A stretch of DNA of 64,000 bases from Clostridiales bacterium. Its GTDB lineage: Bacteria > Bacillota > Clostridia > Christensenellales > UBA1242. The translations under genes and the position numbers were made by a program. Position 1 is the stretch's first letter. Every line of letters starts with the position of its first letter. Below the pieces are notes generated by a model that ran no database searches, was not told where the DNA came from, and saw only the letters and a list, made by a program, of their open reading frames with translations. Shown in pieces: positions 33,003 through 64,000 of the stretch. Where the stretch lies: positions 1,421 through 65,420 of the forward strand of contig SVIA01000004.1 of assembly GCA_015055535.1 (NCBI GenBank). The letters are read 5' to 3'.

Positions 33003-33545
33003 ATGTTTGTAGAAAAATTAACACATGAAGATTTAATAGAAATAATGAAAATGATGTTAAAGAATGAAAGCTTGCTAGCTCAAATTTATACATTAGAAAA
33101 AGAGTTACATACTACCATTAGCAATGATAATGCAATATTAAGAAAAATCTATTTTGCACATGGAAATACTGCCCGTGATATTTATTTAATAAATAAAGAA
33201 TATGTAGATAAAAGTTCTACACAATGTAAATTTGCCGGGAAAACCGAATTTGAAGATTTTTTGGAATGCAGTTTTGATATAATTCATTTAGAACGTATAC
33301 CAACGCTTTTAAATTCAAGAAAAATTAAAAAAACATATATTTCATCACCAATTTTAGTTAATGATTTTAATTTAAGATGGACGCATCCTGCAGATAGAGC
33401 AGTTGTTGATAAAAACCGATTTTATAAATTTATGTACAATAAATTTGGTGAAGAATATAAAATTGAACTAGAAAAACATTTTGAAAGAGAAAGTAAAGAA
33501 AAATTTGAAAAAGCTAAAAAAGAAATTGAAGAATTACAAAAATAA
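33003..33545 (+). CDS. hypothetical protein, paralog B (MFVExL family)
   Basis: GGGAG SD. Paralogous blocks shared with 32352..32867. Confidence 0.6.
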   Translation: MFVEKLTHEDLIEIMKMMLKNESLLAQIYTLEKELHTTISNDNAILRKIYFAHGNTARDIYLINKEYVDKSSTQCKFAGKTEFEDFLECSFDIIHLERIPTLLNSRKIKKTYISSPILVNDFNLRWTHPADRAVVDKNRFYKFMYNKFGEEYKIELEKHFERESKEKFEKAKKEIEELQK

Positions 33546-51166: not shown

Positions 51167-52510
51167 ATGAAGCTTAAGAATAAAAACGTTTTAGTATATG
51201 GCTTAGGTAAAAGTGGACTTGGTGCAATAAAACTATTAAAAAAGTTAAAATCTAAAATTTTTGTATATGACGATATAAAAGAAAATTTAGAAAATTTTTG
51301 CAATGATAATATTATTAAAGTTTACGAAATTAATGAAGATTTTTTACGAAAAACCGATTTAATTATAGTAAATCCTTGTGTAAGCCAATACTGTGAAAAT
51401 TTAAAACTTGCTAGTTTATTAAAAGTTAAAATGATAAGCGAAATAGAACTAGCATATTTATTTTCAAAAGGCAAAATAATATCGGTTACAGGTAGTAATG
51501 GTAAAAGTACAACAAGTACATTAATATATAACATGTTTAAATTAGCAAACAAAAAAGCTAGTTTGGTTGGGAATATTGGATATAGTTATTCAGAAGAAGT
51601 ATCAAAAAACAAGAAACAAACGTACATTGTAGAAGTTAGTAGCTTTCAACTAGAAACAATAGATAAATATCATTCGAATTGTTCGGCTTTTTTAAATTTT
51701 AGTGAAAATCATTTAGACAGGCATTTTTCGTTAAAAAATTATTTTGAAACCAAATGTAGAATTTTTAATAGAGTAAAAAATAAAGATTTTAAAATTTTAA
51801 ATTACGATGATGAAAAGGTAAAAAATATAAAATTTGATAAAAATTATTATTATTTTAGTTTAAATCAAAAAGTTAAAGGTGCTTATTTTTTTAACGATAA
51901 TATTTATTTTAACAATGGTAAAACCGAAGAATTTATTTTACATAAGTCGAGCATAAAACTAATGGGGGAACATAATATACAAAATGTACTATGTGCAATA
52001 ATTGTAGCTAAACTATATAAAATTAAAAATGAAATTATTAAAAAGGCAGTCGAAAGCTTTTTTGGAATAGAGCATAGAATTGAATTTGTTGAAAATATTA
52101 ACGGGGTAAATTATTATAATGATAGTAAATCTACAACAGTAAAAGCAACATTAACTGCTTTAAATTGTTTTAAAAATAATAGCGTCATTTTAATATTGGG
52201 TGGAAGCGATAAGGGGTTTGATTTTAATGACTTATTTTCAAATATGCCTTCTTACGTTAAATGTATTGTTGCTATTGGTGAAGTAAAAGAAAGAGTTTTA
52301 AACAACGCCAAAGAAAATGGTTTTTACAATGTTTATTTAATAGATGATTTTTTTAATAGTATAAAATTTTCAAAAAATTTAGCCGAAAGTGAAAACTATG
52401 ATACGGTTTTATTAAGCCCAGCTACGGCAAGTTACGATATGTTCACAAGTTTTGAACAACGTGGCGAAACTTTTAAAAATTTAGTAAAGGAATTAAAAGG
52501 TGAAAATTAA
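51167..52510 (+). CDS. murD: UDP-N-acetylmuramoylalanine--D-glutamate ligase
   Basis: GLGKSG N-terminus, GSNGKSTT P-loop, DSKSTT motif. Confidence 0.9.
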   Translation: MKLKNKNVLVYGLGKSGLGAIKLLKKLKSKIFVYDDIKENLENFCNDNIIKVYEINEDFLRKTDLIIVNPCVSQYCENLKLASLLKVKMISEIELAYLFSKGKIISVTGSNGKSTTSTLIYNMFKLANKKASLVGNIGYSYSEEVSKNKKQTYIVEVSSFQLETIDKYHSNCSAFLNFSENHLDRHFSLKNYFETKCRIFNRVKNKDFKILNYDDEKVKNIKFDKNYYYFSLNQKVKGAYFFNDNIYFNNGKTEEFILHKSSIKLMGEHNIQNVLCAIIVAKLYKIKNEIIKKAVESFFGIEHRIEFVENINGVNYYNDSKSTTVKATLTALNCFKNNSVILILGGSDKGFDFNDLFSNMPSYVKCIVAIGEVKERVLNNAKENGFYNVYLIDDFFNSIKFSKNLAESENYDTVLLSPATASYDMFTSFEQRGETFKNLVKELKGEN

Positions 52511-53630
52511 TTTTAAAAAAGTTTTTACAAAAAATAAAGGCACAAATTTTTGGCTACTATCTAGCACCATTTTACTTGTTTTAATTGGACTAGTTTTTGT
52601 TTATAGTGCTAGTTCTTACTCTGCTGAAATTAATTATGGAAACAAATATTATTTTTTAATAAAACAATTAGTCGGTGTAATTTTGGGAACAGGAGCATTA
52701 ATTCTTACTAGTAAAATTGATTATAACATTTATAAAAAATATAAAATTCCAATTTTAGTTGTATCAATTATTTTATTAGCACTGGTTTTTATTCCCGGCT
52801 TAGGAGTGGCGAACTATGGTGCCAGAAGATGGATAAGATTACCCGGTTTTACAATTCAACCAAGTGAAATTGCAAAATTTGGTTTTGTTGTTTTTTGTGC
52901 TGCATATCTATCAAAAAATAAAGATATTGTACATAGCTTTAAAGGGATTTTACCCGTTTTAGCTGCTGGTGGCATTTTATGTGTTTTAATAATGCTTGAA
53001 CCAAATATGAGCATTACAATTTGTGTTGGGTTAACTATGTTTCTAATGCTATTTATTGGTGGCGCTAAAATAAAGCATTTTTTAATTTTAGCTCTTCCAG
53101 TTTTGGCTCTTGGAGTTTTACTTATAATATTAGAACCTTACAGATTACAGCGTTTAATGGCTTTTATTAATCCCTGGGCAAATCCACAAGGTGAGGGTTA
53201 TCAATTAATTCAAAGTTTATATAGTTTATCTTCTGGTGGACTTTTTGGTGTAGGGCTTTTTAATTCAAGACAAAAATATTTATTTTTACCATTTTCAGAA
53301 AGTGATTTTATTTTTTCCATAATAGGTGAAGAAACAGGCTTTTTAGGTTGTTTAACCATAATAGCAATTTTCGGTATAATGATATATCAATGTATTAAAA
53401 TCGCCCACAACGCAAAAGATCGTTTTGGTTGTTATCTAGTAACAGGCATAGTTTCTGTTATTGCAACTCAAGTGTTAGTAAACATTGCAGTAGTTACTGG
53501 CTCAATTCCACCAACCGGAGTTCCGCTTCCGTTTATAAGTGCAGGTTCAACAAGTTTGCTTGTCTTTATGTCTGCGATAGGTGTCGTGTTGAATGTAGAT
53601 AGACAGAGTAGGAATAAAGTGATTCAGTAG
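52500..53630 (+). CDS. ftsW: peptidoglycan glycosyltransferase FtsW/SpoVE (SEDS family)
   Basis: 10-TM SEDS protein. QPSEIAKF, ESDFIFSIIGEE, PPTGVPLPFISAGSTS motifs. GTG start overlapping the murD end. Confidence 0.9.
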   Translation: MKINFKKVFTKNKGTNFWLLSSTILLVLIGLVFVYSASSYSAEINYGNKYYFLIKQLVGVILGTGALILTSKIDYNIYKKYKIPILVVSIILLALVFIPGLGVANYGARRWIRLPGFTIQPSEIAKFGFVVFCAAYLSKNKDIVHSFKGILPVLAAGGILCVLIMLEPNMSITICVGLTMFLMLFIGGAKIKHFLILALPVLALGVLLIILEPYRLQRLMAFINPWANPQGEGYQLIQSLYSLSSGGLFGVGLFNSRQKYLFLPFSESDFIFSIIGEETGFLGCLTIIAIFGIMIYQCIKIAHNAKDRFGCYLVTGIVSVIATQVLVNIAVVTGSIPPTGVPLPFISAGSTSLLVFMSAIGVVLNVDRQSRNKVIQ

Positions 53631-53647
53631 TGAATCACGAAAGATTC

Positions 53648-53696
53648 AAAAATGTATACTTATACAGTATGCATTTTTTTGTTTATGTGTTACACT
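53648..53696 (+). promoter_or_regulatory. ftsW terminator hairpin plus cassette promoter module (copy 0)
   Basis: aaaaatgtatac..gtatgcattttttt hairpin/T-run, then TGTGTTACACT extended -10-like box. TAGGAGA SD before 53716. Confidence 0.55.
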
Positions 53697-53715
53697 AAAA
53701 TAGTAGGAGAATAAT

Positions 53716-54678
53716 ATGAAACTAAAAGAAATATTAGATTGTAAGTTGGGTGTTGCAATTAATACAGAAAATATAAAAACACACAAAGATTTAATAATTA
53801 ATGAATTTAATAGTGTTACTTTTGAAAATGCGTTAAAATTTAACTATAGAATAAAAGAAGATTATTCTTATGATTTTTCCGATGCGGATAAACTTTATAA
53901 ATTTGCAATGGACAATAATTTGGCTGTTAGGGGGCATTGTTTGGTTTGGCATAACGGATTTCCAAAACATATATTAGGTAATTTAAGCAAAAATCAACTG
54001 CTTAATGAAATTAGAAAATACGCAAAAGAAGTTAAGAAAAGATATCCTAAAATTTATGCTTGGGATGTTGTAAATGAAATATGTTCAATGGCGCAAAAGG
54101 GATTAAGAAAAACACCATTTTATGAAATAATTGGAGAAGATTATATTGAGGAGTGTTTTAAAATTGCAAGAGAAGAGCTTGGGCAAGATGTAGAATTATA
54201 TTATAACGAAGAAGATGAATGGTTCCCTGAAAAAATAGAAGAGATTATAAAAATTGCTAAAAAATTAAAAGAAAAGAATGTTCCAATAGATGGGATAGGT
54301 TTGCAGTGTCATATTTCTTGTTTTGAAGACATTTCTCAATATAGATATTTATTAGAAAATATTAGACAATTAGGACTAAAATGCCAAATAACAGAAATGG
54401 AAGTATCGGTATACGATTGGACCGATGGGAATTATAAAGAATGTCCAAAGGAAATTTTGGATAAGCAAGCAGAGGTTTATTTAACAATGTTTAAGTTGTT
54501 TAATGAATATAAAGATATTATTAATTCAATAACTTTTTGGTCGGTAAGTGATGGTTGTACTTGGCGTGATATGTGGCCGGTTGAAAATAGAAAAGATTGG
54601 CCAACACTATTTAATGAAAATGATAAACCTAAAGAAGTATACAATAAAGTAGTTGACCAATTAAATAAAAATTCATAG
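53716..54678 (+). CDS. glycoside hydrolase family 10 (xylanase-like), no signal peptide
   Basis: WDVVNE (acid/base) and ITEMEVS (nucleophile region) GH10 signatures. The stop TAG lies inside the junction motif. Confidence 0.8.
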   Translation: MKLKEILDCKLGVAINTENIKTHKDLIINEFNSVTFENALKFNYRIKEDYSYDFSDADKLYKFAMDNNLAVRGHCLVWHNGFPKHILGNLSKNQLLNEIRKYAKEVKKRYPKIYAWDVVNEICSMAQKGLRKTPFYEIIGEDYIEECFKIAREELGQDVELYYNEEDEWFPEKIEEIIKIAKKLKEKNVPIDGIGLQCHISCFEDISQYRYLLENIRQLGLKCQITEMEVSVYDWTDGNYKECPKEILDKQAEVYLTMFKLFNEYKDIINSITFWSVSDGCTWRDMWPVENRKDWPTLFNENDKPKEVYNKVVDQLNKNS

Positions 54679-54827
54679 TGCAATAACTGATGTTAAGGGG
54701 TTCAATACCGCCAACAGGTTTACCGTTGCCTTTCATTAGTGCTGGCTCAACTTCGCTGTTGGTTTTTATGAGTGCGATAGGGGTTGTGCTGAATGTCGAC
54801 AGGCAATCAAGAAAAGGTAGACTTTAA
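54674..54827 (+). repeat. displaced ftsW 3'-end copy R1
   Basis: Junction CATAGTGCAATAACTGATGTTAAGG, then a frame encoding GSIPPTGLPLPFISAGSTSLLVFMSAIGVVLNVDRQSRKGRL*. Confidence 0.9.
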
Positions 54828-54841
54828 TTTTTTATAATAAG

Positions 54842-54894
54842 TGTATACAAAGTGTAAACATTTTGTATACATTTTTTATTTTTTGTGTTATATT
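54842..54894 (+). promoter_or_regulatory. terminator/promoter module (copy 1)
   Basis: tgtatacaaa/tttgtataca 10-bp hairpin plus T-run, then TGTGTTATATT. Confidence 0.5.
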
Positions 54895-54903
54895 AAATTT
54901 AAT

Positions 54904-55341
54904 ATGAAACCTAATTATGAATTAATAGAAGCAAAAAATGAAGATTTTGAATTTATAAAAAATGCAAAGATCATAACGATTTTTGATTATGCAAAAAATA
55001 TTTCAGATGAAGAAAGAGAAGATATTCTATCTTATGTTAATAGATTTACAGAAAAATTTTTGAAAGACTATAAAATTATTTCAAAAAACAATATAAAATG
55101 TGGAGTATTTTTAATTAGAGATTATGAAGATGGTGTATTACTTGATGAAATTTATTTATTGCCAGAGTACCGAAATTTAGGGATTGGTTCTAATATAATA
55201 AAAAGCGAAATAGTAAAGCATAGTAAAGTATATTTATGGGTGTATAAAGAAAATTTAAAGGCTATAAATTTATATAAAAAACTGGGTTTTGTTGTTTTTA
55301 AAGATGAAGCTGAAAGATATTTAATGCTTTATAGTAATTAA
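54904..55341 (+). CDS. GNAT family N-acetyltransferase
   Basis: LLPEYRNLGIGSNIIK acetyl-CoA motif A. The ATG at 54904 has no SD and lies ~9 nt after the -10 box, so it may be leaderless. The GTG at 54841 lies in the hairpin and is unlikely. Confidence 0.75.
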   Translation: MKPNYELIEAKNEDFEFIKNAKIITIFDYAKNISDEEREDILSYVNRFTEKFLKDYKIISKNNIKCGVFLIRDYEDGVLLDEIYLLPEYRNLGIGSNIIKSEIVKHSKVYLWVYKENLKAINLYKKLGFVVFKDEAERYLMLYSN

Positions 55342-55426
55342 TATAACGGCTGATTGTAAAAGTTTAAATAACTTAAATTTAAAACTAAAATAACACTTTT
55401 TAATGTAAATGTGTGCAAGTTTAAAT

Positions 55427-55461
55427 AATGTGTATACATTTTAAATTTTTTGTGTTATAAT
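55427..55461 (+). promoter_or_regulatory. terminator/promoter module without ftsW tail (copy 2)
   Basis: aatgtgtatacatt, T-run, TGTGTTATAAT. CAGGAG SD before 55485. Confidence 0.5.
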
Positions 55462-55484
55462 AAAAAAACAGGAGAAAATTTTTT

Positions 55485-56024
55485 ATGTTTGAAACAGAAA
55501 GGTTAATTATTAGAAGATTTATGCCAAGTGACGCTATTGATATTTATGAAGCGTGCAACGATTATGAAATGGTAAAAACCACACTAGGTTTGCCTTGGCC
55601 TTATACAAAAGAAATGGCAGAAGGCTGGGTTGGCAAAGTGGCACAAAGGGAAGAAGAAGGTTCTTCTTACGAATATGCAATTTGTTTAAAAGATAATCCA
55701 GATAAGATTGTTGGTTGCATTGCGTTAATGGATTTTAATAACAAAGCAAGAAGGGCAGAAATGGGTTATTGGGTTGCAAGAAAATATTGGAGAAATGGTA
55801 TTGCAACAGAAGCTGCAAAAGCTATGCTTAACTTTGGGTTTGAAAAACTTAACCTACATAGCATTATAGCTAGATATTTCGACATTAATCCTGCTAGTGG
55901 TAGGGTTATGGAAAAAGCCGGAATGAGATATGTTGGGACAATTAGAGATCACGAATTTAGATTTGATAAATTCTTTAACGTTGGCTACTATGAAATGTTA
56001 GAAACAGATGAAAGGGAGCAATAA
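55485..56024 (+). CDS. GNAT family N-acetyltransferase (RimJ/RimL-like)
   Basis: ETERLIIRRF start, YWVARKYWRNGIATEAAKAML motif A. Confidence 0.85.
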   Translation: MFETERLIIRRFMPSDAIDIYEACNDYEMVKTTLGLPWPYTKEMAEGWVGKVAQREEEGSSYEYAICLKDNPDKIVGCIALMDFNNKARRAEMGYWVARKYWRNGIATEAAKAMLNFGFEKLNLHSIIARYFDINPASGRVMEKAGMRYVGTIRDHEFRFDKFFNVGYYEMLETDEREQ

Positions 56025-56038
56025 ATTTGCTCTTTTTT
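56016..56038 (+). terminator. cassette-end terminator (stop codon in the loop)
   Basis: gagcaa-taaa-tttgctc plus T6. Near-identical copy at 58489-58511. Confidence 0.6.
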
Positions 56039-56050
56039 AATGCAAAAAAC

Positions 56051-56205
56051 TTATAGTGCAATAACTCGTGATAAGGGGCTCTATTCCGCCAACCGGAGTT
56101 CCACTACCATTTATCTCTGCGGGTAGCACAAGTTTGCTAGTCTTTATGTCAGCGATAGGAGTTGTATTGAATGTTGATAGACAGAGTAGGAAAGCAAAAA
56201 TTTAA
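56051..56205 (+). repeat. displaced ftsW 3'-end copy R2
   Basis: TTATAGTGCAATAACTCGTGATAAGG junction, then GSIPPTGVPLPFISAGSTSLLVFMSAIGVVLNVDRQSRKAKI*. Confidence 0.9.
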
Positions 56206-56217
56206 GTTTTTTAATGT

Positions 56218-56251
56218 AAATGTATACATTTTTTTGTTTGTGTGATATACT
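56218..56251 (+). promoter_or_regulatory. terminator/promoter module (copy 3)
   Basis: Perfect palindrome aaatgtatacattt, T-run, TGTGATATACT. TAGGAGA SD. Confidence 0.5.
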
Positions 56252-56267
56252 AAAAAGGTAGGAGAAA

Positions 56268-56924
56268 ATGCAAATGAAAAAATTTTATTCAAGTATAATT
56301 AACCTAAAAGATAAAGAGTTGAATTGGAAAAATCAAAATTATTGTTATGCTACTACAATTTTTGTGGTGATAATGATTTTTGTATTAAGTAATATTCTGT
56401 CATCTAAAATATACGAAATTCTTATCACTAATAGTTTTTGGAATTGTTTTTTAATGTCTTTATATCCTAATTTTAGCATGATAATGTTTGGGGCTGTTAG
56501 TTTGTACTTGGAACGTAAATATGGTTCTTTAAATTATTTACTTGTAGTTTTAATGTGTTTGCCGATTGCTAATATTGTTAATTATTCATTTGAATTTTTG
56601 CAAGGTTCTAATTTAGGCTGGGCTGGTTCAATGGGATTTTCTTGCATGGCATTTTTAATGACTGGAATTTTTGTTATAGATTTTATTTTCAGTTTTAAAC
56701 ATCATTTAAAAGATAAATTGAGTTTAATTTTTCCAATTATTATAATCATAATTTGTATAATATTTATGTGTATCAATTTGCCAAATGATATAACACCAAA
56801 TTTTCACTTTGATTTTTTTGGTAGATTGGTGGAAAATTGCGGACATTATGGGCCTTTCATATTTGGGGTTATTATGAGATTATTGGCATTTTTATTTTGT
56901 AAAGATAATAATAAAATTTTATAG
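56268..56924 (+). CDS. polytopic membrane protein, rhomboid-like
   Basis: 6 TM helices. ERKYGS, GWAGSMGFS and GHYGPFIFG segments resemble rhomboid TM2/TM4/TM6 motifs, but the match is weak. The stop TAG is inside the junction motif. Confidence 0.55.
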   Translation: MQMKKFYSSIINLKDKELNWKNQNYCYATTIFVVIMIFVLSNILSSKIYEILITNSFWNCFLMSLYPNFSMIMFGAVSLYLERKYGSLNYLLVVLMCLPIANIVNYSFEFLQGSNLGWAGSMGFSCMAFLMTGIFVIDFIFSFKHHLKDKLSLIFPIIIIIICIIFMCINLPNDITPNFHFDFFGRLVENCGHYGPFIFGVIMRLLAFLFCKDNNKIL

Positions 56925-57076
56925 TGCAATAACTCGTGATAAGGGGCTCTATTCCGCCAACCGGAGTTCCACTACCATTTATCTCTGCGGGTAGCACAAG
57001 TTTGCTAGTCTTTATGTCAGCGATAGGGGTTGTTCTCAACATAGATAAACAGAGTAGGAATAATAAGATTCAGTAG
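56919..57076 (+). repeat. displaced ftsW 3'-end copy R3
   Basis: The first 109 nt are identical to R2. The tail ...VVLNIDKQSRNNKIQ* and the downstream TGAATCA.. resemble the resident ftsW end. Confidence 0.9.
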
Positions 57077-57094
57077 TGAATCATAAAGAAACAA

Positions 57095-57139
57095 AATGTA
57101 TGCGATTTCGTATACATTTTTTATTTTTTGTAGTATACT
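57095..57139 (+). promoter_or_regulatory. terminator/promoter module (copy 4)
   Basis: atgtatgcga-tt-tcgtatacat hairpin, T-run, TAGTATACT. AGAGGG SD. Confidence 0.5.
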
Positions 57140-57156
57140 CTTAGTTAGAGGGTAAA

Positions 57157-57678
57157 ATGAAACATTTAGAATTTGTTAAACTGAATAAAGATAATTTTGA
57201 AAAAGTGTTGACCATTAAACATTTGGCGTTTCCTGAATCAAATTCAGATGATGATTATGTAAAGTATTTTGCCAATGAAGTTAAAGCTAACTATTATTTA
57301 ATAGAGTTTAACGGAGATCCTTGTGCTACTATTGGCTGGTATGACTTTGATGGACAAAAAAGAAATGCCTTTGTTGGTTGGTTTGCGGTTTTGCCAGAGT
57401 ATCAAAATAAAAAGATTGGAACGCGAGCATTAAATTATATAGTTGATGAAGTTAAGTCTTTGGGGTATCAATATTTAAGGGTGTATACAGATAAAGTTGT
57501 AAATTATATCTCAACCAAGTTATATGATAAAATCTTTGACATAAAAGAGAACTATACATACCCTGATGAAATTGGCAAAACAAATAATTTTATTGTTTAT
57601 ACAAAATTCTTAACCGACAAACAAGAAAGATGGAACAACAAACCTTTGAATGAAGATGATAATTATGATTTAGATTAG
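57157..57678 (+). CDS. GNAT family N-acetyltransferase
   Basis: FAVLPEYQNKKIGTRALNYIV motif A. The stop TAG is inside the junction motif. Confidence 0.75.
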   Translation: MKHLEFVKLNKDNFEKVLTIKHLAFPESNSDDDYVKYFANEVKANYYLIEFNGDPCATIGWYDFDGQKRNAFVGWFAVLPEYQNKKIGTRALNYIVDEVKSLGYQYLRVYTDKVVNYISTKLYDKIFDIKENYTYPDEIGKTNNFIVYTKFLTDKQERWNNKPLNEDDNYDLD

Positions 57679-57827
57679 TACAATAACTCGTGTTAAGGGG
57701 TTCAATACCGCCAACAGGTTTGCCTTTGCCGTTCATCTCTGCCGGCTCAACTTCACTGTTAGTTTTTATGAGTGCGATAGGGGTTGTGCTTAATGTAGAT
57801 AGGTAGAGTAGAAAGAGTAAAATATAG
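57676..57827 (+). repeat. displaced ftsW 3'-end copy R4 (with internal CAG to TAG change)
   Basis: TAGTACAATAACTCGTGTTAAGG junction. GSIPPTGLPLPFISAGSTSLLVFMSAIGVVLNVDR, then TAG where other copies have Q. Same subfamily as R1. Confidence 0.9.
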
Positions 57828-57871
57828 TTTTGTATATTGCAATTATTTTAAAAATATGTTATCATAAAAAT

Positions 57872-58498
57872 ATGAAAAATTTATTTATTTTATTGTTTCC
57901 ACAAAAAGAATATGTTGCTGGATATTTTACCGAAGAAGATATATCATTATTTAATGATTGTATTAGAAAAAGATATATTGAAAAAGGATATGACTTTTGC
58001 ATTGCTACCTTTAAAAATTCAAATATGGGTATAGTTTCTTTAAAACCTCATATTATTGTTAATGCCAATATAACTTTTGGAGAGTCAAGTCCATATACCT
58101 GCAAAAATTGGAAATATGCAGATTTTAAAAATCTAGCAGAGAAAGTCGATGTTGATAAATATGCTAATATTGCTGTTGGTGGTTTTCATTGTTATGATTG
58201 TGTTGAAAAATTTGCTAATGAAATTTATTTAACTAATCCTAATGTAATAATCGATACAGATTTGACTGAATTGTTTAGAAATGCATATCGATATGAAGAA
58301 AGTTTTAATATAGAAAAATTTAATCTAAATTTAAAATTAAAAAGAGTTTATAGTGATGGATATATTCCATTAGAAACATTAGAGAGACTACAAGAAAAAT
58401 TTCAAAAACCGATTTGGGGTATCTCTTCTAAAGTTTTAAAGTTTTTAGAAAAAATAATTCAAAAAGAGAAAGAAAACAATATTACTAAAGAGCAATAA
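57872..58498 (+). CDS. hypothetical protein
   Basis: ORF from MKNLFILLF. TTGCAA..TATCAT promoter-like boxes upstream. No motif recognised. Confidence 0.55.
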   Translation: MKNLFILLFPQKEYVAGYFTEEDISLFNDCIRKRYIEKGYDFCIATFKNSNMGIVSLKPHIIVNANITFGESSPYTCKNWKYADFKNLAEKVDVDKYANIAVGGFHCYDCVEKFANEIYLTNPNVIIDTDLTELFRNAYRYEESFNIEKFNLNLKLKRVYSDGYIPLETLERLQEKFQKPIWGISSKVLKFLEKIIQKEKENNITKEQ

Positions 58499-58511
58499 TT
58501 TGCTCTTTTTT
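58489..58511 (+). terminator. cassette-end terminator (second copy)
   Basis: agagcaa-taa-tttgctct plus T6. The ORF also ends ..EQ*, as at 56016. Confidence 0.6.
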
Positions 58512-58524
58512 GTTATTTAATTTT

Positions 58525-58615
58525 ATAATACAATAACTGATTTTAAGAGGTTCAATTCCTCCAACTGGCTTGCCACTACCATTTATCTCTGCCGGCTCAA
58601 CTTCGCTATTATTTT
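58525..58615 (+). repeat. truncated displaced ftsW 3'-end copy R5
   Basis: TATAATACAATAACTGATTTTAAGA junction, then GSIPPTGLPLPFISAGSTSLL. Similarity is lost after that. Confidence 0.8.
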
Positions 58616-58786
58616 TTAGCGAGGCGCAAGAATTTTTTTGTAGTGTTATTGTATTGTTTTAAAAATGGGGACGGGGATTGAAAAGAACAATAAGTGTAAA
58701 AGTTTACAAATTAATATTGACATAAATAGGAAAATTTGATATTATATGAATGAATTAAAATAACATTTTTTGGAAGGAAATATATT

Positions 58787-59344
58787 ATGAGTTATGAAAA
58801 AATTACTGGTTATTTTGTTGACATAAGTGAAAATGATCACAAAGATTTGATTAGTACAAATGATGAATATGCAGAAATTAGTTCTATTATTAAGGATTAT
58901 GAAACTTGTTTATGGTTGGAAAGAAAATATTTTTCAATACAAAAGTGGGATAATGAGAATGATCCAGAATTTAGAGAAGCTTATTATATTTATGACCCTA
59001 ATTTGGCAAAAGAAAATAAAGTATTTTTTGAAAAATGGCCAAAGAAAAGAGAAAAACTTATTGCAAAATTAAATGAGCATAAATATTTATTTAAGACTGC
59101 AAAAAATCGTGACGAAGATATTCTTAAGCACGGTGATATAATATTTAAAGAACTTAAATCGTATTATGAAAAAGATGACAGTTTTTGTAAACTTAAAAAC
59201 GATTTAGAAGAAAAAAGTGTAAAGAGTAATAATGGGGATATTTTATACGATTATATAGTTAAACTTTATGCTAGAAGAAAAAAAATGGTTAAAGAATATT
59301 TGTCTGAAAAGAAAGAATCATTAGAAGGCGAGTTGTCGCTATAA
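58787..59344 (+). CDS. hypothetical protein
   Basis: TTGACA-17nt-TATTAT promoter at ~58717-58745. GGAAGGA SD. 185-codon ORF. Confidence 0.55.
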   Translation: MSYEKITGYFVDISENDHKDLISTNDEYAEISSIIKDYETCLWLERKYFSIQKWDNENDPEFREAYYIYDPNLAKENKVFFEKWPKKREKLIAKLNEHKYLFKTAKNRDEDILKHGDIIFKELKSYYEKDDSFCKLKNDLEEKSVKSNNGDILYDYIVKLYARRKKMVKEYLSEKKESLEGELSL

Positions 59345-59366
59345 ACTAAAATTAGATATTTTAATG

Positions 59367-59422
59367 AAAATGTATACAATTGTAATCAAAATGTATACAT
59401 TTTTTTGTTTGTGTGTTATTAT
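59367..59422 (+). promoter_or_regulatory. terminator/promoter module without ftsW tail (copy 5)
   Basis: Two aaaatgtataca copies, T-run, TGTGTGTTATTAT. A second TGATATAAT box lies at 59481-59489. Confidence 0.45.
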
Positions 59423-59510
59423 AAATTTATAATGAAACTGTTCATTTAGTGTCAATAGGCTTTGAAAAATGTTTTTGGTGTGATATAATATACGCATAGG
59501 AGAATTATAG

Positions 59511-60206
59511 ATGAAAGAACTTGTTACAGATAGATTTGTAATAAATTTTCAAGAAGGTCTAGAAGGTTTTATCAAAAATTCATTAAAAATTGTTGAACAA
59601 CAAATGCCTTTATTGGAAAAATTGTTTCTATCTGAAGTTACAGAAGTTGAAAAACTTAAGGCTTCTTTTTTTATAACAAGAAAAGATTTTGTTGAGTATA
59701 TTAAATCAATTTCAAATGGAAGAACACCACCAGAATGGGCAACTGGTTGCTTTTATAATGGTGAAATTCAAACATTATTAAATATTAATAACGAAGAAGA
59801 TATGAAATATAAAATTTATACATTAACGCACGAAATGGTGCATTTATATATTCAAAAACTTGTTTATGAAAAATATAAAATAGATAGAATAAGATGGTTT
59901 GATGAGAGCTATGCGTCATATATTGGTGGGCACATAAAAAACATGACAAAACAAAAATTACAAACAATATGTGAACAATTAAAAACTTTTAGTCAATTTG
60001 ATTTGAATATTCTTGATGATATTAAAAAAGTAAGAACAACAGAATATGATGGATATAATATGTTTTTGGTGATAGGAAAGTATTTATTTGAAAATAATTT
60101 AGATAAAGATTATATTGAATTATTAAAAATTAATCCAGAAGAAATAAGAAAAGAAGGGAAAAGTATTTTAAAAAAAGCTATAGAGTATGTATTAAAAAGC
60201 TTATAG
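59511..60206 (+). CDS. putative zinc metallopeptidase (HExxH...E)
   Basis: LTHEMVHLY with a downstream WFDESYASY (gluzincin-like spacing). TAGGAGA SD. The stop TAG lies in the degenerate junction TTATAGTGTAATAA. Confidence 0.55.
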   Translation: MKELVTDRFVINFQEGLEGFIKNSLKIVEQQMPLLEKLFLSEVTEVEKLKASFFITRKDFVEYIKSISNGRTPPEWATGCFYNGEIQTLLNINNEEDMKYKIYTLTHEMVHLYIQKLVYEKYKIDRIRWFDESYASYIGGHIKNMTKQKLQTICEQLKTFSQFDLNILDDIKKVRTTEYDGYNMFLVIGKYLFENNLDKDYIELLKINPEEIRKEGKSILKKAIEYVLKSL

Positions 60207-60310
60207 TGTAATAAATCATGGTAAATTACTCCATTTCGCTCCTGGATTATTTTGGCCATTAAAAAAATGTCAAAAAGTTGAATTAGTAAACTAGCATAAA
60301 GGCAATAATA

Positions 60311-60427
60311 AATGGGTTATTTATATACAACTTGTTTTATCATAAGTTTATATTTGATATGTATTATAATATTGGTTTTTATGAAATGTTGGCGACAATT
60401 AAAATAAATAATAATTTAAAAGTATAG
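60311..60427 (+). pseudogene. 3' fragment of a RimJ/RimL-type GNAT gene
   Basis: Frame reads ..FYHKFIFDMYYNIGFYEMLA.., alignable to the C-terminus HEFRFDKFFNVGYYEMLE of 55485..56024. No N-terminal part is present. Confidence 0.35.
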
Positions 60428-60557
60428 GTTTAATATATAAATTACATTATTATAATTTTTATTTGTTAAAGTAATTAAAAATTTATATATTGACATTGAG
60501 AATAAAATATAGTATAATGCTTAAAATTAATAAATTAATTTATTTAAGGAGATAAAA

Positions 60558-61232
60558 ATGAAAGAGTTTTATGGATTGTTTGGAGAGGAATTTACATTAA
60601 AAATGGTTAATCAAATTAACACATCTTCTCATTATGTTAAAGATGTAAAATTACAATCTCTTCCAGCAGATTATGATGAACCAAATGAAAAATTTGTACT
60701 AGACGAACCAGCAAAAAAAAGAGAATATTTGTCGCCTAGAGCAAAAACTATTGATGGTACTATATATCATAATGGTTATCCTTGTTATATTGGAAATTAT
60801 AAGTATCGCTCAGCAATATATAAATCAATGGGTGGTTTAATCATACTTCCAGTTTATAGTCTAGAAAATGATGATTATCTTTGTGCATATTTAAGAAATA
60901 TAAAAGGTTTTGTTATACTAAATAAGGACTTGGAAATTATTTATAAAAATCTTAATACATCATATGAATATTTTAGCAACAAACAAGAATTTTATGATTT
61001 CCTTCATGATTATGGCCCAACCGCATTACAATTTGTGAATCCAGAAGATTTTAATCTTGTAACTCAAAATGCTTTAAGAAGAGTTTACTCTTTAAGAGAA
61101 CAAACACTAAAAGATAATGAAGTTGATTCAGTTGAAATATTAAAAGATAAAGAATTATTTAATAAAGCATTTAATATTTTGAAAAAAGAATATCAAAAAA
61201 TTCAAGAAAAAACTGATAGCAAGGAATGTTAA
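60558..61232 (+). CDS. hypothetical protein
   Basis: TTGACA-17nt-TATAAT promoter at 60491-60519. AAGGAG SD. 224-codon ORF. Confidence 0.55.
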   Translation: MKEFYGLFGEEFTLKMVNQINTSSHYVKDVKLQSLPADYDEPNEKFVLDEPAKKREYLSPRAKTIDGTIYHNGYPCYIGNYKYRSAIYKSMGGLIILPVYSLENDDYLCAYLRNIKGFVILNKDLEIIYKNLNTSYEYFSNKQEFYDFLHDYGPTALQFVNPEDFNLVTQNALRRVYSLREQTLKDNEVDSVEILKDKELFNKAFNILKKEYQKIQEKTDSKEC

Positions 61233-61336
61233 TGCTTAAATTTTAAGTTTAATAAAAAAGTAAAATTTAATTAGTATTGGTATTAACATAATTAAGTTAA
61301 TAATAGTTTAATAATTAATATATAATTATAATAAAA

Positions 61337-61364
61337 TAACACGGGAATTTCCGTGTTATTTTTA
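61337..61364. terminator. hairpin terminator
   Basis: ataacacgg-gaattt-ccgtgttat plus T-run. Confidence 0.6.
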
Positions 61365-61799
61365 TAAAAAGGTTTTTAATGAGTCAACAAATTCTTCTTC
61401 ATAGCTTACTACATCTTTAGCAATAGACAATAATTCTTTGTTTTTGGAGTTAAATTCATTCATTGCTTTTAGGGTATCTGTTATTCCCATTGTTGTACCC
61501 TGAATAAGCATTTCGGCAAGTTTTGGTGAATCATTGTTAATTAAAGTTTTTGTTTTTATGCTTACATATGACATGCCTTTTAAAATGGGATTTATATCCT
61601 TTAATTCAAAACTCATAGTTTTGGCAAATTGCTCAACTTTTTCAACCGTGTTAAGATAATATTTATTTTGTTTTCTTAAAAGTTCAGCTAGTTTAATATT
61701 TTCAATTTTTTCAATAATACAATCTATTGCAAAGCTTGCCATTCTAACATTTTCATAAACTCTGTTTGCTAGTTCAATTTCATTATTTTTTTGTTCCAT
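61362..61799 (-). CDS. hypothetical helical protein
   Basis: AAAGGAG SD on the minus strand. 145-codon ORF. Confidence 0.55.
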   Translation of the reverse strand: MEQKNNEIELANRVYENVRMASFAIDCIIEKIENIKLAELLRKQNKYYLNTVEKVEQFAKTMSFELKDINPILKGMSYVSIKTKTLINNDSPKLAEMLIQGTTMGITDTLKAMNEFNSKNKELLSIAKDVVSYEEEFVDSLKTFL

Positions 61800-62009
61800 A
61801 TTTACTCCTTTAATTTATTTTTTACCTAAATCAAATTTTTATGTATATATTTTGTTGTTAAAATAACTTCGTTTAGTATTAAATAGAGTTTATGTTTTAA
61901 ACTTAATAGTTTTAAAAGTGAAATATATGTCGTTGAATAAGCATATAAAAAGTATTACATATTAAAAAAAAGTTGTATTAACATACAACTTTTAAATTTT
62001 ATTTTTAGT

Positions 62010-62363
62010 TTATTTTTGTTCTAATTCTTCTTTATAACAAACAAGGTGTTTTCTTAAATTGTTTTCAACTTCAACCAAATTTGGGTTTTCATGAACAACT
62101 TCTAATAATTTTTTAAAATTATTTTTATCAATAGTTTTTCCATATCTATCATCGCATAAATCAAGCGAAACAATTAATTCTGCAATTTGTTTAATTGTTC
62201 TTTCATCATCTGATTTAAGAGTATTAATTGCTTTTGTTACTTTTCTTAAAGATGAATTTCTATAAAATTTACTTGTTTCCCAAAATTGTTTTAACTCTGC
62301 TTTCCAGCAAGCCAATATTTCTGTTAATGATTTATTGTCGTTTTCGTCATTAAAATCTCTCAT
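62010..62363 (-). CDS. hypothetical protein
   Basis: TAGGAGAAAAAC SD region. 117-codon ORF. Confidence 0.5.
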   Translation of the reverse strand: MRDFNDENDNKSLTEILACWKAELKQFWETSKFYRNSSLRKVTKAINTLKSDDERTIKQIAELIVSLDLCDDRYGKTIDKNNFKKLLEVVHENPNLVEVENNLRKHLVCYKEELEQK

Positions 62364-62480
62364 GTGTTTTTCTCCTATAAAAATATGTTAACACTTATAG
62401 TCCATTTTGTCAAGATGCAAATTAATTTTTTAATTATAATAATTATAATTTATAGTTAAAAACATATAAAAAAGCATATG

Positions 62481-62813
62481 TTACATATGCTTTTTTCTAT
62501 ATTTATTCAATGTTGTTAGCCACAATAAAAGTTCTTGATGTTTTTCTATTATCTCTTTGTTGGTATTGTTTTTAATTACATCTTTAGTGTGCTCAATTGC
62601 TTCCATTAGTGTCATATATCCTTCAAGAAGGGGATTTTCTTTGTTTATTCCAATTTTACCCATTTCGTAGTCGCTCAATTCTATCAGCCAGTCTAAAATT
62701 TGTTGATGCTGGTTCGCACATTCCAAACAAGAAAAAGTGCTTTCATTTTGTTTTTTAATAAGTAGTTTTAATTGATAAATTTCGTTTTTCAAATTTTTAT
62801 TATTAATTTTCAT
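62481..62813 (-). CDS. hypothetical protein, probably leaderless
   Basis: The ATG at 62813 is preceded by TGTTATAAT, 6 nt upstream, with no SD. The TTG at 62831 is unlikely. Confidence 0.5.
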   Translation of the reverse strand: MKINNKNLKNEIYQLKLLIKKQNESTFSCLECANQHQQILDWLIELSDYEMGKIGINKENPLLEGYMTLMEAIEHTKDVIKNNTNKEIIEKHQELLLWLTTLNKYRKKHM

Positions 62814-62912
62814 GCTCTTATTATAACACAAACTTTATTTACTTGTCTAATTAAAAAGATGTTTCCGTTGATTTTACGCCTCTTTTTTGATATACTAACA
62901 CAAGGGGTAATT

Positions 62913-63155
62913 ATGAATATTGGTATAGATTTAGACGGCGTACTTTTTGACAGCTAAAGCGTATATGAATCATATGCTGGGTTTTACGATTTATATATTA
63001 ACGGAAAAGGAATTGTTAATAAAGATGAAATTTGAATGCAAAAAAATATTCTTGGTCAAAAATGTGGATTACTTTTGGGCAAGAAAAATATAGTTACGAT
63101 GAAAATTTTTTAAAAATTTCAAACTATATTAAAAATAATAAAATTAAAAGATCTT
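62913..63155 (+). pseudogene. disrupted HAD-family 5'(3')-deoxyribonucleotidase-like gene
   Basis: MNIGIDLDGVLFDS (HAD DxD motif), then TAA at 62955. Coding-like sequence continues in other frames (..YSWSKMWITFGQEKYSYDENF..). Confidence 0.5.
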
Positions 63156-63205
63156 GATTTTTATATAATCCTGTAGTATAATTAAGAATAAAATAAGGAG
63201 AAAAT

Positions 63206-64000
63206 ATGTTAACACTTCAACATTCATTAATAACACTATTTGCTTTAAATGGAAATGAAAAACAATTTAAAGAAGAATTGCCATATGTTTTATTGCCAGA
63301 CGCTATAAGAAAATACTTAACAAATAGAAAATATGGGCATTTTGAATTATCGCACGATAAAAAAGATGTTTCTTGGCTTAAATATCCAATAGATATTAAA
63401 AACTTATCGAGCGAAATATTTGATATGGCGGAAAAACATTTGGTATCTGATTTGAGCCCTTGTGTTTTGGGTGAAATAACTCAAGTTGAAAGCTTTGAAA
63501 AACACAATTCTCATTTGCCAATTGTTTATTTTGCGGGAGTAAAAAAACATTTAATTCAAGATAGACTTAATGATGTGTTTATAAGAAAAATAATTGATTG
63601 TAGCAAAATGTATGAAGATATATTTGTTTTTAAAGGCAAAGAATATACTGGAACAGAAATTCGAAAAATAATTAGCGAAATAGAAAATTATGGCTTTTAT
63701 ATTTTAAGTTCTATGTTGTATGATGCTTTTAATATTACAACAAACCAAGAATGGTTTGATAAAAATGTAAAACCAGTTTTGGATAAGGCTTATGGAGAAG
63801 AATTATCTAATGCTACATATCGTTTTATGAAAATACCAGAAGACATTAATGAAAAAATTACTAATCATGACTTTTCGAACTTAGATAAAAATATAATTGA
63901 TATAAATATTTATTTAAATATGTATAAATTAGTAGTAGAGAGTATGAAACAGGTTGATGTTGAGAGAATAAAAAAAGAAAAAACCAATAATGAGAATATA
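63206..64000 (+). CDS. hypothetical protein (3' end beyond window)
   Basis: AAGGAG SD. ATG at 63206. Open frame runs to the window edge (265 codons). Not in the ORF track because no stop is present. Confidence 0.55.
   Translation, partial: MLTLQHSLITLFALNGNEKQFKEELPYVLLPDAIRKYLTNRKYGHFELSHDKKDVSWLKYPIDIKNLSSEIFDMAEKHLVSDLSPCVLGEITQVESFEKHNSHLPIVYFAGVKKHLIQDRLNDVFIRKIIDCSKMYEDIFVFKGKEYTGTEIRKIISEIENYGFYILSSMLYDAFNITTNQEWFDKNVKPVLDKAYGEELSNATYRFMKIPEDINEKITNHDFSNLDKNIIDINIYLNMYKLVVESMKQVDVERIKKEKTNNENI

What the first reader, a model, noticed from the sequence alone, without database searches (positions are those of the whole stretch)
53499..57827. Displaced ftsW tails differ from the resident tail almost only at synonymous positions
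I compared the first 38 codons (GSIPP..QSR) by hand. Resident tail versus R2: 15 codons differ and no amino acid changes. Resident tail versus R1: 27 codons differ and one amino acid changes (V to L). Ser codons even switch between the AGY and TCN families while Ser is preserved. So the fragments are not recent duplications of the resident gene drifting neutrally. They diverged under purifying selection as parts of functional ftsW genes, presumably in different lineages, or they are still under selection now. This supports horizontal arrival of each cassette together with its own ftsW tail.
Basis: seen in the sequence. Interest (0 to 1): 0.75.

Follow-up and report, generated by a model that had tools for sequence, protein, structure and literature searches.

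The report
Gene cassettes carrying spare ftsW ends
Downstream of the essential cell-division gene ftsW, this gut Clostridia genome holds a row of small mobile one-gene cassettes, each paired with a replacement copy of the gene's last 38 codons. This looks like an undescribed integron-like gene-capture system, and I could not find the enzyme that moves the cassettes.

Summary
The resident ftsW tail (53499-53612) and four displaced copies differ at 8-35 of 114 bases but at only 0-2 amino acids. dN/dS is 0-0.19, and random placement of the same changes gives P<2e-5 for every pair that includes the resident tail.

The tails are junctions of an array of at least 8 cassettes (53.6-60.2 kb). Each unit is: ftsW tail, terminator hairpin overlapping a promoter-like site, ribosome-binding site, one cargo gene, and a conserved 25-nt "arm".

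28 of 80 related Christensenellales genomes carry such arrays, with up to 10 tails. Their resident tail is a shared "cassette-type" peptide regardless of how far the rest of FtsW has diverged. In two genomes the native tail sits displaced behind the arm. Cassettes come and go between strains and species: one is absent in 99%-identical strains, and the GH10 cassette is 99.3% identical in a different species.

Distal tails decay, so they are not under selection once displaced. No recombinase was found in the cassettes, the window or the flanks. The junctions do not fold like integron attC sites.

A cassette's own tail is the one upstream of its cargo. Cargo can also move without any tail. I found no published description.

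The parts
52500..53630 (+). Resident ftsW (376 aa), last gene of an ftsI-murE-mraY-murD-ftsW run. Its last 38 core codons plus 5 extension codons (NKVIQ) form tail R0.
   Evidence: Pfam FTSW_RODA_SPOVE on the called gene. 56-78% identical to FtsW of 80 Christensenellales genomes.
53499..53612 (+). R0, the resident tail (GSIPP..QSR). It is cassette-type from about codon 19 onward and unlike the native tail of the closest relatives.
53619..53700 (+). Constant module after the tail: hairpin GTGATTCAGTAGTGAATCAC across the stop codon, an AT-rich TGTATAC hairpin with a T run, a -10-like box and the AGGAGAA ribosome-binding site.
   Evidence: Repeat families D3, D4 and D6; consensus scan. Promoter and terminator function is inferred from consensus only.
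53716..54678 (+). Cassette 1 cargo: glycoside hydrolase family 10. Its stop codon is the TAG of the arm.
   Evidence: Pfam E=2e-79. 99.3% identical block (53621-54689) in a different species, L085/L087.
54676..54698 (+). Arm 1 (TAGTGCAATAACTGATGTTAAGG).
54699..54827 (+). R1, a displaced tail. Its 38 core codons are intact (V8L relative to R0), followed by the extension KGRL and a stop.
54839..54894 (+). Terminator hairpin (two TGTATACA palindromes plus a T run) overlapping the -35 box, then an extended -10 box.
54904..55341 (+). Cassette 2 cargo: GNAT acetyltransferase (145 aa).
55344..55365 (+). Arm-like remnant (TATAACGGCTGATTGTAAAAG) with no tail after it. I read it as a cassette junction that lost its tail.
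   Evidence: Read directly from the sequence. The homologous GNAT179 cassette follows a tail directly in L010 and L040. This is an inference.
55485..56024 (+). Cassette 3 cargo: GNAT acetyltransferase (179 aa). It ends in ..EQ*, encoded by the 5' arm of a terminator hairpin (56016-56032).
   Evidence: Homologues at 75-79% in L010, L018 and L040.
56054..56076 (+). Arm 2.
56077..56205 (+). R2, a displaced tail with intact core codons, extension KAKI and a stop.
56274..56924 (+). Cassette 4 cargo: rhomboid-like membrane protein. This cassette is absent in 99%-identical strains (L090, L093).
56922..56944 (+). Arm 3. Together with the first 84 tail bases it is identical to arm 2 plus R2.
56945..57076 (+). 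R3, a displaced tail with intact core codons (V33I, R35K), extension NNKIQ and a stop.
57157..57678 (+). Cassette 5 cargo: GNAT acetyltransferase (173 aa).
   Evidence: The homologue in metagenome contig L081 is preceded by a different tail.
57676..57698 (+). Arm 4.
57699..57827 (+). R4, a displaced tail with an in-frame TAG at 57804-57806 (codon 36).
   Evidence: This tail plus the next cassette is homologous to the resident tail plus first cassette of L010.
57872..58498 (+). Cassette 6 cargo: 208-aa protein of unknown function. It ends in ..EQ* inside a terminator hairpin (58487-58508).
58526..58680 (+). Arm 5 plus R5. This displaced tail has a ~35-nt insertion (stop codon plus small hairpin) after codon 22 and a decayed 3' part.
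58787..60206 (+). Two more cargo ORFs (185 aa and 231 aa, function unknown). A promoter module (59371-59422) lies between them but no tail.
   Evidence: The 231-aa cassette is the first cassette in L011.
60204..60260 (+). Arm 6 remnant (TAGTGTAATAAATCATGGTAAAT) and a barely recognisable tail. This is the distal end of the array.
   Evidence: (family D2).

Best explanation
The region is an array of small mobile gene cassettes inserted one after another into the 3' end of the essential gene ftsW.

Each cassette carries, in order:
- a replacement copy of the last ~43 codons of ftsW (the PPTGxPLPF loop, the last transmembrane helix and a short cytoplasmic end);
- a terminator hairpin overlapping a promoter-like site;
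- a ribosome-binding site;
- one cargo gene;
- a conserved 25-nt arm.

Inferred steps. In the mobile form, presumably a circle, the arm abuts the tail. A recombinase supplied in trans, which I did not find, exchanges strands within the ~10 bases (SRTGTTAASR) just upstream of the GGN codon of GSIPP.

What comparisons with other genomes show. The incoming tail becomes the working end of ftsW. The old tail is pushed downstream behind the arm, where an in-frame TAA blocks its translation.

Inferred consequences. Repeating this builds a polar array with the newest cassette next to ftsW. Every tail has served, or must be able to serve, as the end of an essential protein, so tails are held constant at the protein level while synonymous sites drift to near saturation. 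Displaced tails then decay. Tails that stay identical at the DNA level invite deletion of the cassette between them. Cargo can also be swapped between arrays without the tails.
For: Anatomy. Five arms match a 28-nt pattern where chance expects 0.00 matches. The arm is conserved at the DNA level in 30 displaced junctions from genomes with 56-78% identical FtsW, while third-codon positions in the tails vary freely.

Purifying selection. dN/dS is 0-0.19 and the simulation gives P<2e-5 for R0 pairs. Across 666 pairs of cassette-type tails, the mean differences are 20.3 at third positions, 7.0 at first and 4.1 at second, with 2.8 amino-acid differences.

The imported tail becomes resident. At the same body identity (64%), array-bearing genomes share tail peptides at 85% identity versus 72% for array-free genomes. 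L079 and L027 have a cassette-consensus resident tail and a native-like displaced tail. The displaced tail of L027 is 100% identical to the native tail of L026 over bases 1-19, while its resident tail differs from base 3.

The upstream tail goes with the cargo. Window R4 plus its cassette equals the resident tail plus first cassette of L010. Tail 4 of L010 plus its cassette equals the resident tail plus first cassette of L040. In both cases homology starts at the GSIPP codon or within 9 bases of it.

Mobility. The rhomboid cassette is absent in 99%-identical strains. The GH10 cassette is 99.3% identical in a species whose ftsW 3' half is visibly diverged from the window's; the alignment that includes the 99% block averages 85%.

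Exchange region. The GH10 block ends at CAATAACT|. Left and right arm halves reassort between junctions.

Polarity and decay. R1-R3 are intact, R4 has a stop, R5 has an insertion, and R6 is nearly gone.

Spread. 28 of 80 related genomes carry two or more tail matches.
Against: - No recombinase was found: not in the cassettes, not among the recurrent ORF families in the up-to-10-kb downstream flanks of the 80 loci, and not in the window. The window check rests only on reading the ORFs and a crude motif scan.
- No circular form or empty-site junction was observed.
- The GH10 block shared between species excludes both flanking tails, and its left edge lies in the last three ftsW codons, not at an arm.
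- The GNAT173 cassette has different upstream tails in the window and in L081.
- Tails are mosaic: R2 and R3 are identical for 84 bases and then diverge, and the two halves of a tail have different nearest relatives.

These last three points fit homologous exchange as well as, or better than, a single fixed crossover.
Confidence: 0.68

Rival explanations
1. Homology-driven capture with no dedicated recombinase. DNA taken up from relatives (by transformation or transduction) integrates by RecA-type single or double crossovers. The conserved ftsW tail, the promoter module and the arm serve as portable homology arms. Arrays grow and shrink by unequal exchange between tails.
For: Tails are mosaic and block edges vary. 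The rhomboid cassette indel lies inside a 109-nt perfect repeat. The GH10 block is bounded by constant modules, not by tails. Cargo and tail reassort. No recombinase was found.
Against: Tails are only 58-86% identical at the DNA level (apart from R2/R3), with few long perfect runs, which makes them poor RecA substrates. The 25-nt non-coding arm is conserved across very divergent genomes, and pure homology use does not explain that. In L027 the switch from foreign to native sequence sits at the very edge of the homology, within 3 bases, where a homologous crossover is least likely. This model also cannot create the first arm-plus-tail duplication.
Confidence: 0.2
2. The tails are local tandem duplications of the host's own ftsW 3' end, with cargo genes inserted later, and the copies drift apart in place.
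For: The copies are direct repeats in one orientation next to the parent gene. R2 and R3 are 93% identical.
Against: dN/dS is 0-0.19 at up to 35 differences in 114 bases. The resident tail is unlike the native tails of the closest relatives. The same cassettes and tails occur in other species in other array positions.
Confidence: 0.02
3. The displaced tails are expressed today as ~45-residue membrane peptides (M-I/L-R-GSIPP..) from the in-frame ATG/GTG in the arm, and are conserved for that function.
For: R1-R3 are open reading frames of 45-46 codons. Most arms hold an in-frame RTG three codons before GSIPP. Many displaced tails in L076 match the consensus peptide at 35-38 of 38 residues.
Against: No ribosome-binding site precedes the RTG (sequence). 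Divergent arms (L021, L059, L008) lack the RTG. Only 26 of 49 displaced tail matches are full-length, ungapped and stop-free. Decay increases with distance from ftsW.
Confidence: 0.05
4. It is a classical integron, or a cluster of attC sites that has lost its integrase.
For: It is a polar array of mostly single-gene cassettes in one orientation. The cargo is rich in GNAT acetyltransferases and the cassettes hold no recombinase.
Against: No intI-like gene or motif was seen. The junction modules fold no better than shuffled sequence, with z from -0.4 to +1.2. The junctions are coding-sequence copies. Each cassette has its own promoter-like and terminator-like sites.
Confidence: 0.03

Closest known systems
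e14 element and phage 21 inserted in the E. coli icd gene, with the displaced 3' fragment icdC
   Same: The integrating element supplies a substitute 3' end, so the target gene stays functional. The old end is left behind as a fragment. The two ends differ by many synonymous changes and very few amino-acid changes. Excision of e14 produces multiple synonymous changes plus two D-to-E changes in icd (PMC13626634).
   Different: e14 is a single ~15-kb prophage with its own integrase. Here the units are 0.75-1.4 kb with one cargo gene and no recombinase, stacked up to 10 deep. The replacement ends form a family shared across many species.
Integrons (IntI, attI, attC cassettes)
   Same: Works alike: a polar array of one-gene cassettes in one orientation at a fixed chromosomal site. 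Cassettes lack a recombinase. The cargo is varied and rich in acetyltransferases. Cassette content varies between strains.
   Different: Not a member. No IntI was found. Junctions are copies of a coding sequence without hairpin potential. Cassettes carry their own terminator-like and promoter-like sites. Insertion replaces part of an essential gene. From my own knowledge, unchecked: integron surveys report none in Firmicutes.
Tandem accretion of integrase-less elements at the 3' end of a gene: cis-mobilizable elements with ICEs/IMEs, SCC composite islands at rlmH, and ssrA islands of Dehalococcoides
   Same: Direct repeats of the target gene's 3' end flank each unit. Units stack in tandem. Some units have no recombinase and rely on one supplied in trans (reviewed in PMC5704250; ssrA islands in PMC3146451; both surfaced, and I saw only the start of each abstract).
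   Different: Those repeats are short (about 15-60 nt), and the arrays contain or neighbour an element with the cognate integrase. Here the repeat is a 114-130-nt coding segment under protein-level selection, the units are single expression cassettes, and no partner element was seen.
Tycheposons of Prochlorococcus (recalled from memory, not checked here)
   Same: Tandem arrays of small cargo-bearing elements at a conserved gene, each leaving a partial copy of the target.
   Different: Tycheposons target tRNA genes and encode their own integrases. These cassettes do neither.

Membership tests
Integron | An intI tyrosine-recombinase gene next to the array | tested here: not met
   No recombinase domain in cassette or post-array ORFs (Pfam). 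None among the recurrent ORF families in the up-to-10-kb downstream flanks of the 80 loci. Window ORFs at 1-46.7 kb were only read by eye and scanned with crude motifs. The rest of the genome was not available.
Integron | attC sites: imperfect inverted repeats that fold into a hairpin as single strands | tested here: not met
   Four arm-plus-tail modules folded as DNA give z-scores of -0.40, +1.17, -0.02 and +0.18 against shuffles.
Integron | Mostly promoterless cassettes read from a common promoter | tested here: not met
   A conserved extended -10 and -35 consensus plus ribosome-binding site lies before each cargo gene, and a terminator-like hairpin follows each tail. This rests on consensus only; there are no expression data.
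Integron | A polar array of single-ORF cassettes in one orientation, variable between strains | tested here: met
Integrative element that restores the 3' end of its target gene (e14/icd type) | The element-borne copy of the target's 3' end becomes the functional end, and the old end is displaced | tested here: met
   L079 and L027 have a resident tail equal to the cassette consensus and a displaced tail equal to the native type. Window R4 matches the resident tail of L010.
Integrative element that restores the 3' end of its target gene (e14/icd type) | The element encodes its own integrase | tested here: not met
   Cassettes hold one or two cargo genes only.
Cis-mobilizable element (att-flanked, no recombinase) | Flanked by att-type repeats and lacking recombination and transfer genes | tested here: met
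   Each unit is flanked by arm-plus-tail repeats and has no recombinase.
Cis-mobilizable element (att-flanked, no recombinase) | A partner ICE, IME or phage with a cognate integrase using the same att site | tested here: inconclusive
   None was seen in the 28 arrays and their flanks. The arm-tail pattern has 0 hits in viral contigs, and the module has no match in phage or plasmid collections. Whole genomes could not be searched.
Any site-specific mobile cassette | An excised circular form and a precise empty site | not testable with these tools
   Only assembled contigs were available. The one indel seen (rhomboid cassette) lies inside a 109-nt perfect repeat, so it does not separate site-specific from homologous exchange.
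Tandem segmental duplication | Copies derive from the resident gene and diverge neutrally | tested here: not met

The most novel reading that the evidence does not exclude
This is a previously undescribed gene-capture platform of gut Bacillota (Christensenellales) that works like an integron but is built differently. The insertion site lies inside the essential gene ftsW. Every cassette is a self-contained expression unit (terminator, promoter, ribosome-binding site, ORF) that brings a spare copy of the last transmembrane helix of FtsW. A recombinase of unknown, possibly new, type acts in trans on a 25-nt arm plus the first ~17 tail bases. One consequence is that the C-terminal helix of an essential cell-wall polymerase is itself horizontally exchanged, and is held more constant than the native versions.
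Probability: 0.45. Interest if true: 0.88.

Novelty: new variant of a known kind. Interest (0 to 1): 0.8.

Why it matters
- **A second route to cassette arrays.** If the model holds, bacteria have built cassette arrays in another way, in a phylum where integrons are (to my knowledge) considered absent, and in abundant but poorly studied gut and rumen Clostridia.
- **A clean case of selection on a mobile element.** The element is constrained through the host's essential protein. The spare tails are kept at 34-38 of 38 residues while silent sites are close to saturated.
- **Chimeric FtsW.** FtsW in these genomes is routinely a chimera with an imported last helix.
- **Cargo.** The cassettes carry many acetyltransferases, a phosphotransferase-like kinase, surface repeat proteins and glycoside hydrolases. 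This resembles the adaptive and resistance-type content of integrons.
- **Practical use.** The recombinase, once found, would target a site conserved across a whole order. The cassettes are natural ready-made expression units.

Tried and rejected
- **Integron attC-like folding of arm plus tail.** Rejected: it folds no better than shuffled sequence.
- **The R0/R3 ftsW terminus as a second, arm-like site**, which would have explained the left edge of the GH10 block. Rejected: alignment scores of 12-14 against a background of 10.7±2.6.
- **Crossover at the 3' end of the tail**, so that a cassette's own tail lies downstream of its cargo. Rejected: strains lacking the rhomboid cassette keep the 3' part of R3, not of R2, and the GH10 block ends in mid-arm.
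- **Crossover at codons 12-14 as the general rule.** Rejected for arm-type cassettes by the L027/L026 comparison.
- **Xer/dif-like reading of the arm.** By eye there is only a 7-nt resemblance (ATGTTAA) and no dyad. Dropped.
- **Phage or plasmid carriers.** The arm-tail pattern has 0 hits in viral contigs. The module has no match in 50,697 phage or 72,556 plasmid records.
- **Metagenome scan.** Only 3 short contigs were returned.
- **Known RNA or tRNA target.** None found.
- **Exact-protein look-up of the window FtsW.** Failed twice, so strain variants with other first cassettes could not be retrieved that way.
- **Locating the crossover from the window against its closest relatives.** Too noisy at ~75% identity.
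- **Literature.** Six full-text searches found no description of ftsW-linked cassette arrays. Two of them targeted known analogues and supplied those cited under 'closest known'.

Full report
**1. The observation**

The window carries a cell-wall/division gene run, ftsI-murE-mraY-murD-ftsW. ftsW lies at 52500-53630.

The last 38 core codons of ftsW (GSIPP..QSR, 53499-53612) recur downstream at 54699, 56077, 56945 and 57699. A decayed copy starts at 58549. An arm-only remnant lies at 60204-60226.

- R0 versus R2: 15 codons differ and no amino acid changes.
- R0 versus R1: 27 codons differ and one amino acid changes (V to L).

Nei-Gojobori dN/dS is 0-0.19 for every pair. Binomial P values run from 1e-8 to 3e-2. 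When the observed number of base changes is placed at random, none of 50,000 trials gives as few amino-acid changes for any pair that includes the resident tail.

The array is real. It recurs at 100% identity in contigs from other JGI samples, and shorter 99.8-100% pieces recur in ENA assemblies. The window itself is part of JGI contig Ga0318466_10008251.

**2. Anatomy**

Every displaced tail is preceded by a conserved, non-coding 25-nt arm with consensus TATARTRCAATAACTSRTGTTAASR. There are five matches in the window where chance expects 0.00. The arm places a TAA in the tail's reading frame.

After the 38 core codons come, in order:
- 4-5 variable codons and a stop;
- an AT-rich hairpin with a T run, often built from two TGTATACA palindromes;
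- a -35-like box inside that hairpin;
- an extended -10 box;
- an AGGAGAA ribosome-binding site;
- one cargo ORF on the ftsW strand.

Four of the eight cargo ORFs use the arm's TAG as their stop codon. Two others end in ..EQ*, encoded by a shared terminator hairpin.

The cargo genes are a family-10 glycoside hydrolase, three GNAT acetyltransferases, a rhomboid-like membrane protein and three proteins of unknown function.

Two junctions have lost their tail: 55344-55365, and the gap between the ORFs at 58787 and 59511. The array therefore holds at least eight cassettes.

Promoter and terminator function is inferred from consensus only.

**3. It is a lineage-wide system**

Searching one genome per species with FtsW returned 80 loci, all uncultured Clostridia or Christensenellales, at 56-78% identity.
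- 28 loci carry two or more tail matches downstream of ftsW, with up to 10 in L076 and 8 in L077.
- Nearly all cargo ORFs lie on the ftsW strand, mostly one per cassette.
- In relatives, murA, a ftsQ-like gene, ftsA and ftsZ follow the array or the bare ftsW.
- In several array-free genomes murA follows ftsW directly, without the promoter module. The module therefore belongs to the cassettes.

Among 57 cassette ORFs, at least 10 are GNAT acetyltransferases. The rest are varied: BspA-type repeat proteins, a CotH kinase, deaminases, a transporter and others. None is a recombinase. An ORF just beyond the array in L028 is a phosphotransferase-like kinase.

**4. The tails are imported, working gene ends**

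Array-bearing genomes share one cassette-type tail peptide, GSIPPTGLPLPFISAGSTSLLVFMSAIGVVLNVDRQSR, whatever the divergence of the rest of FtsW.
- At equal body identity (64%), tail identity is 85% between array-bearing genomes and 72% between array-free genomes.
- The window's closest relatives (L001, L004, L006) carry a different, native tail..STALVVFMASIGILINIHKQS..
- In 40 cassette-type tails, third-codon positions are almost free (about 1-1.9 bits of entropy). Ser, Leu and Arg codons switch families.
- Across 666 pairs, the mean differences are 20.3 at third positions and 2.8 amino acids.

In L079 and L027 the resident tail equals the cassette consensus (38/38). The last displaced tail matches the native tail of the nearest array-free relative at 0.92 and 0.89.

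In L027 the displaced tail is 100% identical to the native tail of L026 over bases 1-19, while the resident tail already differs at base 3.

Window R4 plus its cassette plus the next arm (57699-58604) is homologous at 86% to the resident tail plus first cassette of L010. Homology begins at the GSIPP codon. Tail 4 of L010 plus its cassette matches the resident tail plus first cassette of L040 in the same way.

So the tail upstream of a cargo gene belongs with that cargo. The resident tail belongs to the newest cassette, and insertion displaces the previous tail.

**5. Mobility**

- Contigs L090 and L093 are 99% identical to the window but lack the rhomboid cassette. The join lies in the 109 bases (arm plus tail bases 1-84) that are identical between R2 and R3.
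- L085 and L087 come from another species. Its FtsW ends in a native-type tail, ..STALVCNMAMVGILLNIDRESRKNMIQ. They carry the GH10 cassette at 99.3% identity from 53621 to 54689.
- That block runs from the last three ftsW codons to the left half of the arm (..CAATAACT). Both flanking tails are clearly diverged, and the next cargo gene is different.
- A homologue of the GNAT173 cassette in L081 has a different upstream tail.

Cargo therefore also moves without tails.

**6. Where strands are exchanged**

Three observations bracket a ~10-nt segment, SRTGTTAASR, between CAATAACT and the GGN codon:
- The GH10 block ends at CAATAACT|.
- The left (..GTGC or ..ATAC) and right (CGTG or GATG) arm halves reassort among 30 junctions.
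- The L027/L026 comparison places the exchange within about 3 bases of the arm/tail border.

Inside the tail, only codon 5 (CCA in 38 of 40 tails) looks constrained at the DNA level. This suggests the site runs as far as CCAAC.

The left edge of the GH10 block is not at an arm-like sequence. Together with the mosaic tails, this shows that homologous exchange or gene conversion between the constant modules also happens.

**7. No ongoing selection on displaced copies**

- In the window, intactness falls with distance from ftsW. R1-R3 are intact, R4 has a TAG, R5 has an insertion and a decayed 3' part, and R6 is nearly gone.
- Across the loci, 49 displaced tail matches include only 29 full-length ungapped ones, and 26 of those lack stops. 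None of the 81 resident tails has a stop within its 38 core codons.
- No ribosome-binding site precedes the in-frame RTG of the arm, and divergent arms lack that RTG.

**8. What I could not find**

- No recombinase was found in the cassettes, among the recurrent ORF families in the up-to-10-kb downstream flanks, or in the window. The window check was only by reading the ORFs plus a crude motif scan.
- The arm-tail junction does not occur in viral contigs.
- The module has no match in phage or plasmid collections.
- Arm-plus-tail modules do not fold better than shuffled sequence.
- No RNA family or tRNA gene is involved.

**9. Interpretation and comparison**

The best reading is an integron-like array of trans-mobilised expression cassettes. 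They insert at a fixed point in ftsW and carry a substitute gene end.

The principle that an inserting element replaces the 3' end of its target with a synonymously diverged copy is known from e14 and phage 21 in icd (PMC13626634). Tandem stacking of integrase-less units at the 3' end of a gene is known from cis-mobilizable elements and ssrA islands.

Several things appear new:
- the combination of ~1-kb single-gene units, each with its own terminator-like and promoter-like sites;
- arrays up to ten deep;
- a protein-coding junction element held constant at the peptide level across an order of bacteria;
- no recombinase in cis.

It fails the defining tests for an integron, because it has no IntI, no attC structure and cassettes that are not promoterless.

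Six full-text searches found no description of it.

The main rival is purely homology-driven capture, which I put at about 0.2. The conserved arm and the edge-of-homology junction argue against it, but it clearly contributes to reshuffling.

**10. Verdict**

The finding is real and correctly interpreted. It is the visible edge of a larger, apparently undescribed cassette system.

Noticed in passing
L073 11780-11994 and 12779-12993; L077 11611-11831, 12465-12675, 14340-14552 and 15223-15438; L068 12359-12575; L072 about 8360-8548; L010 about 8900-9115; also L076 after 18071 and the end of L081: Many displaced tails carry the same ~105-nt structured insertion, which replaces codons 12-13 (FI) between ..PLP and SAGSTS. 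It folds into two or three hairpins (z about -4.5) and has no Rfam match. It is never seen in a resident tail. It could spread by gene conversion between tails or be part of a recombination site.
   Followed up: partly
window 58612-58640; L010 about 9050-9085; L021 about 12195-12230: A second recurrent insertion of ~35 nt (TAGCGAAGCGCAAGAAAATGCAGTTTTCTTTTG: a stop codon plus a small hairpin) sits after ..LLVF in displaced tails of three different genomes. It shows that window R5 is full length rather than truncated.
   Followed up: partly
window 54676-54678, 56922-56924, 57676-57678, 60204-60206; 56016-56024 and 58490-58498: Four of the eight cargo ORFs end on the TAG of the conserved arm. Two unrelated ORFs end in ..EQ*, encoded by the same terminator hairpin (GAGCAATAA). 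Cargo reading frames therefore run into the constant module, which may say something about how cassettes are made.
   Followed up: no
window 54839-54874, 57093-57120, 55431-55438, 56221-56228, 59371-59399: Seven of the eight exact TGTATACA palindromes in the 64-kb window lie in the array, and six of those are in the post-tail modules. There they form an AT-rich hairpin plus T run that overlaps the -35 box. This could be a terminator-promoter overlap or a shared operator for co-regulation of all cassettes.
   Followed up: partly
window 60240-64000: In relatives, murA, a ftsQ-like gene, ftsA and ftsZ follow ftsW or its array. Here the 3.8 kb after the array hold unrelated ORFs of unknown function on both strands. 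The contig continues with a CitMHS transporter gene and a radical-SAM gene. The division cluster is split at this point.
   Followed up: partly
tail codon 5, for example window 53511-53513: The third base of Pro codon 5 is A in 38 of 40 cassette-type tails, while neighbouring Pro codons vary freely. CCAAC is thus the only stretch inside the tail that looks constrained at the DNA level.
   Followed up: partly
window 32352-32867 and 33003-33545: Two adjacent ORFs of 171 and 180 aa, of unknown function, start with similar sequences (MFVE.L..ED....). They look like a local paralogue pair and are unrelated to the array.
   Followed up: no
L041 3409-5464 versus L055 10900-11776: These are two close relatives (FtsW body 97% identical). 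They carry different single cassettes after ftsW. L041 has a 5'-truncated displaced tail with no canonical arm, so the arm-type junction is not the only way cassettes sit at this site.
   Followed up: partly
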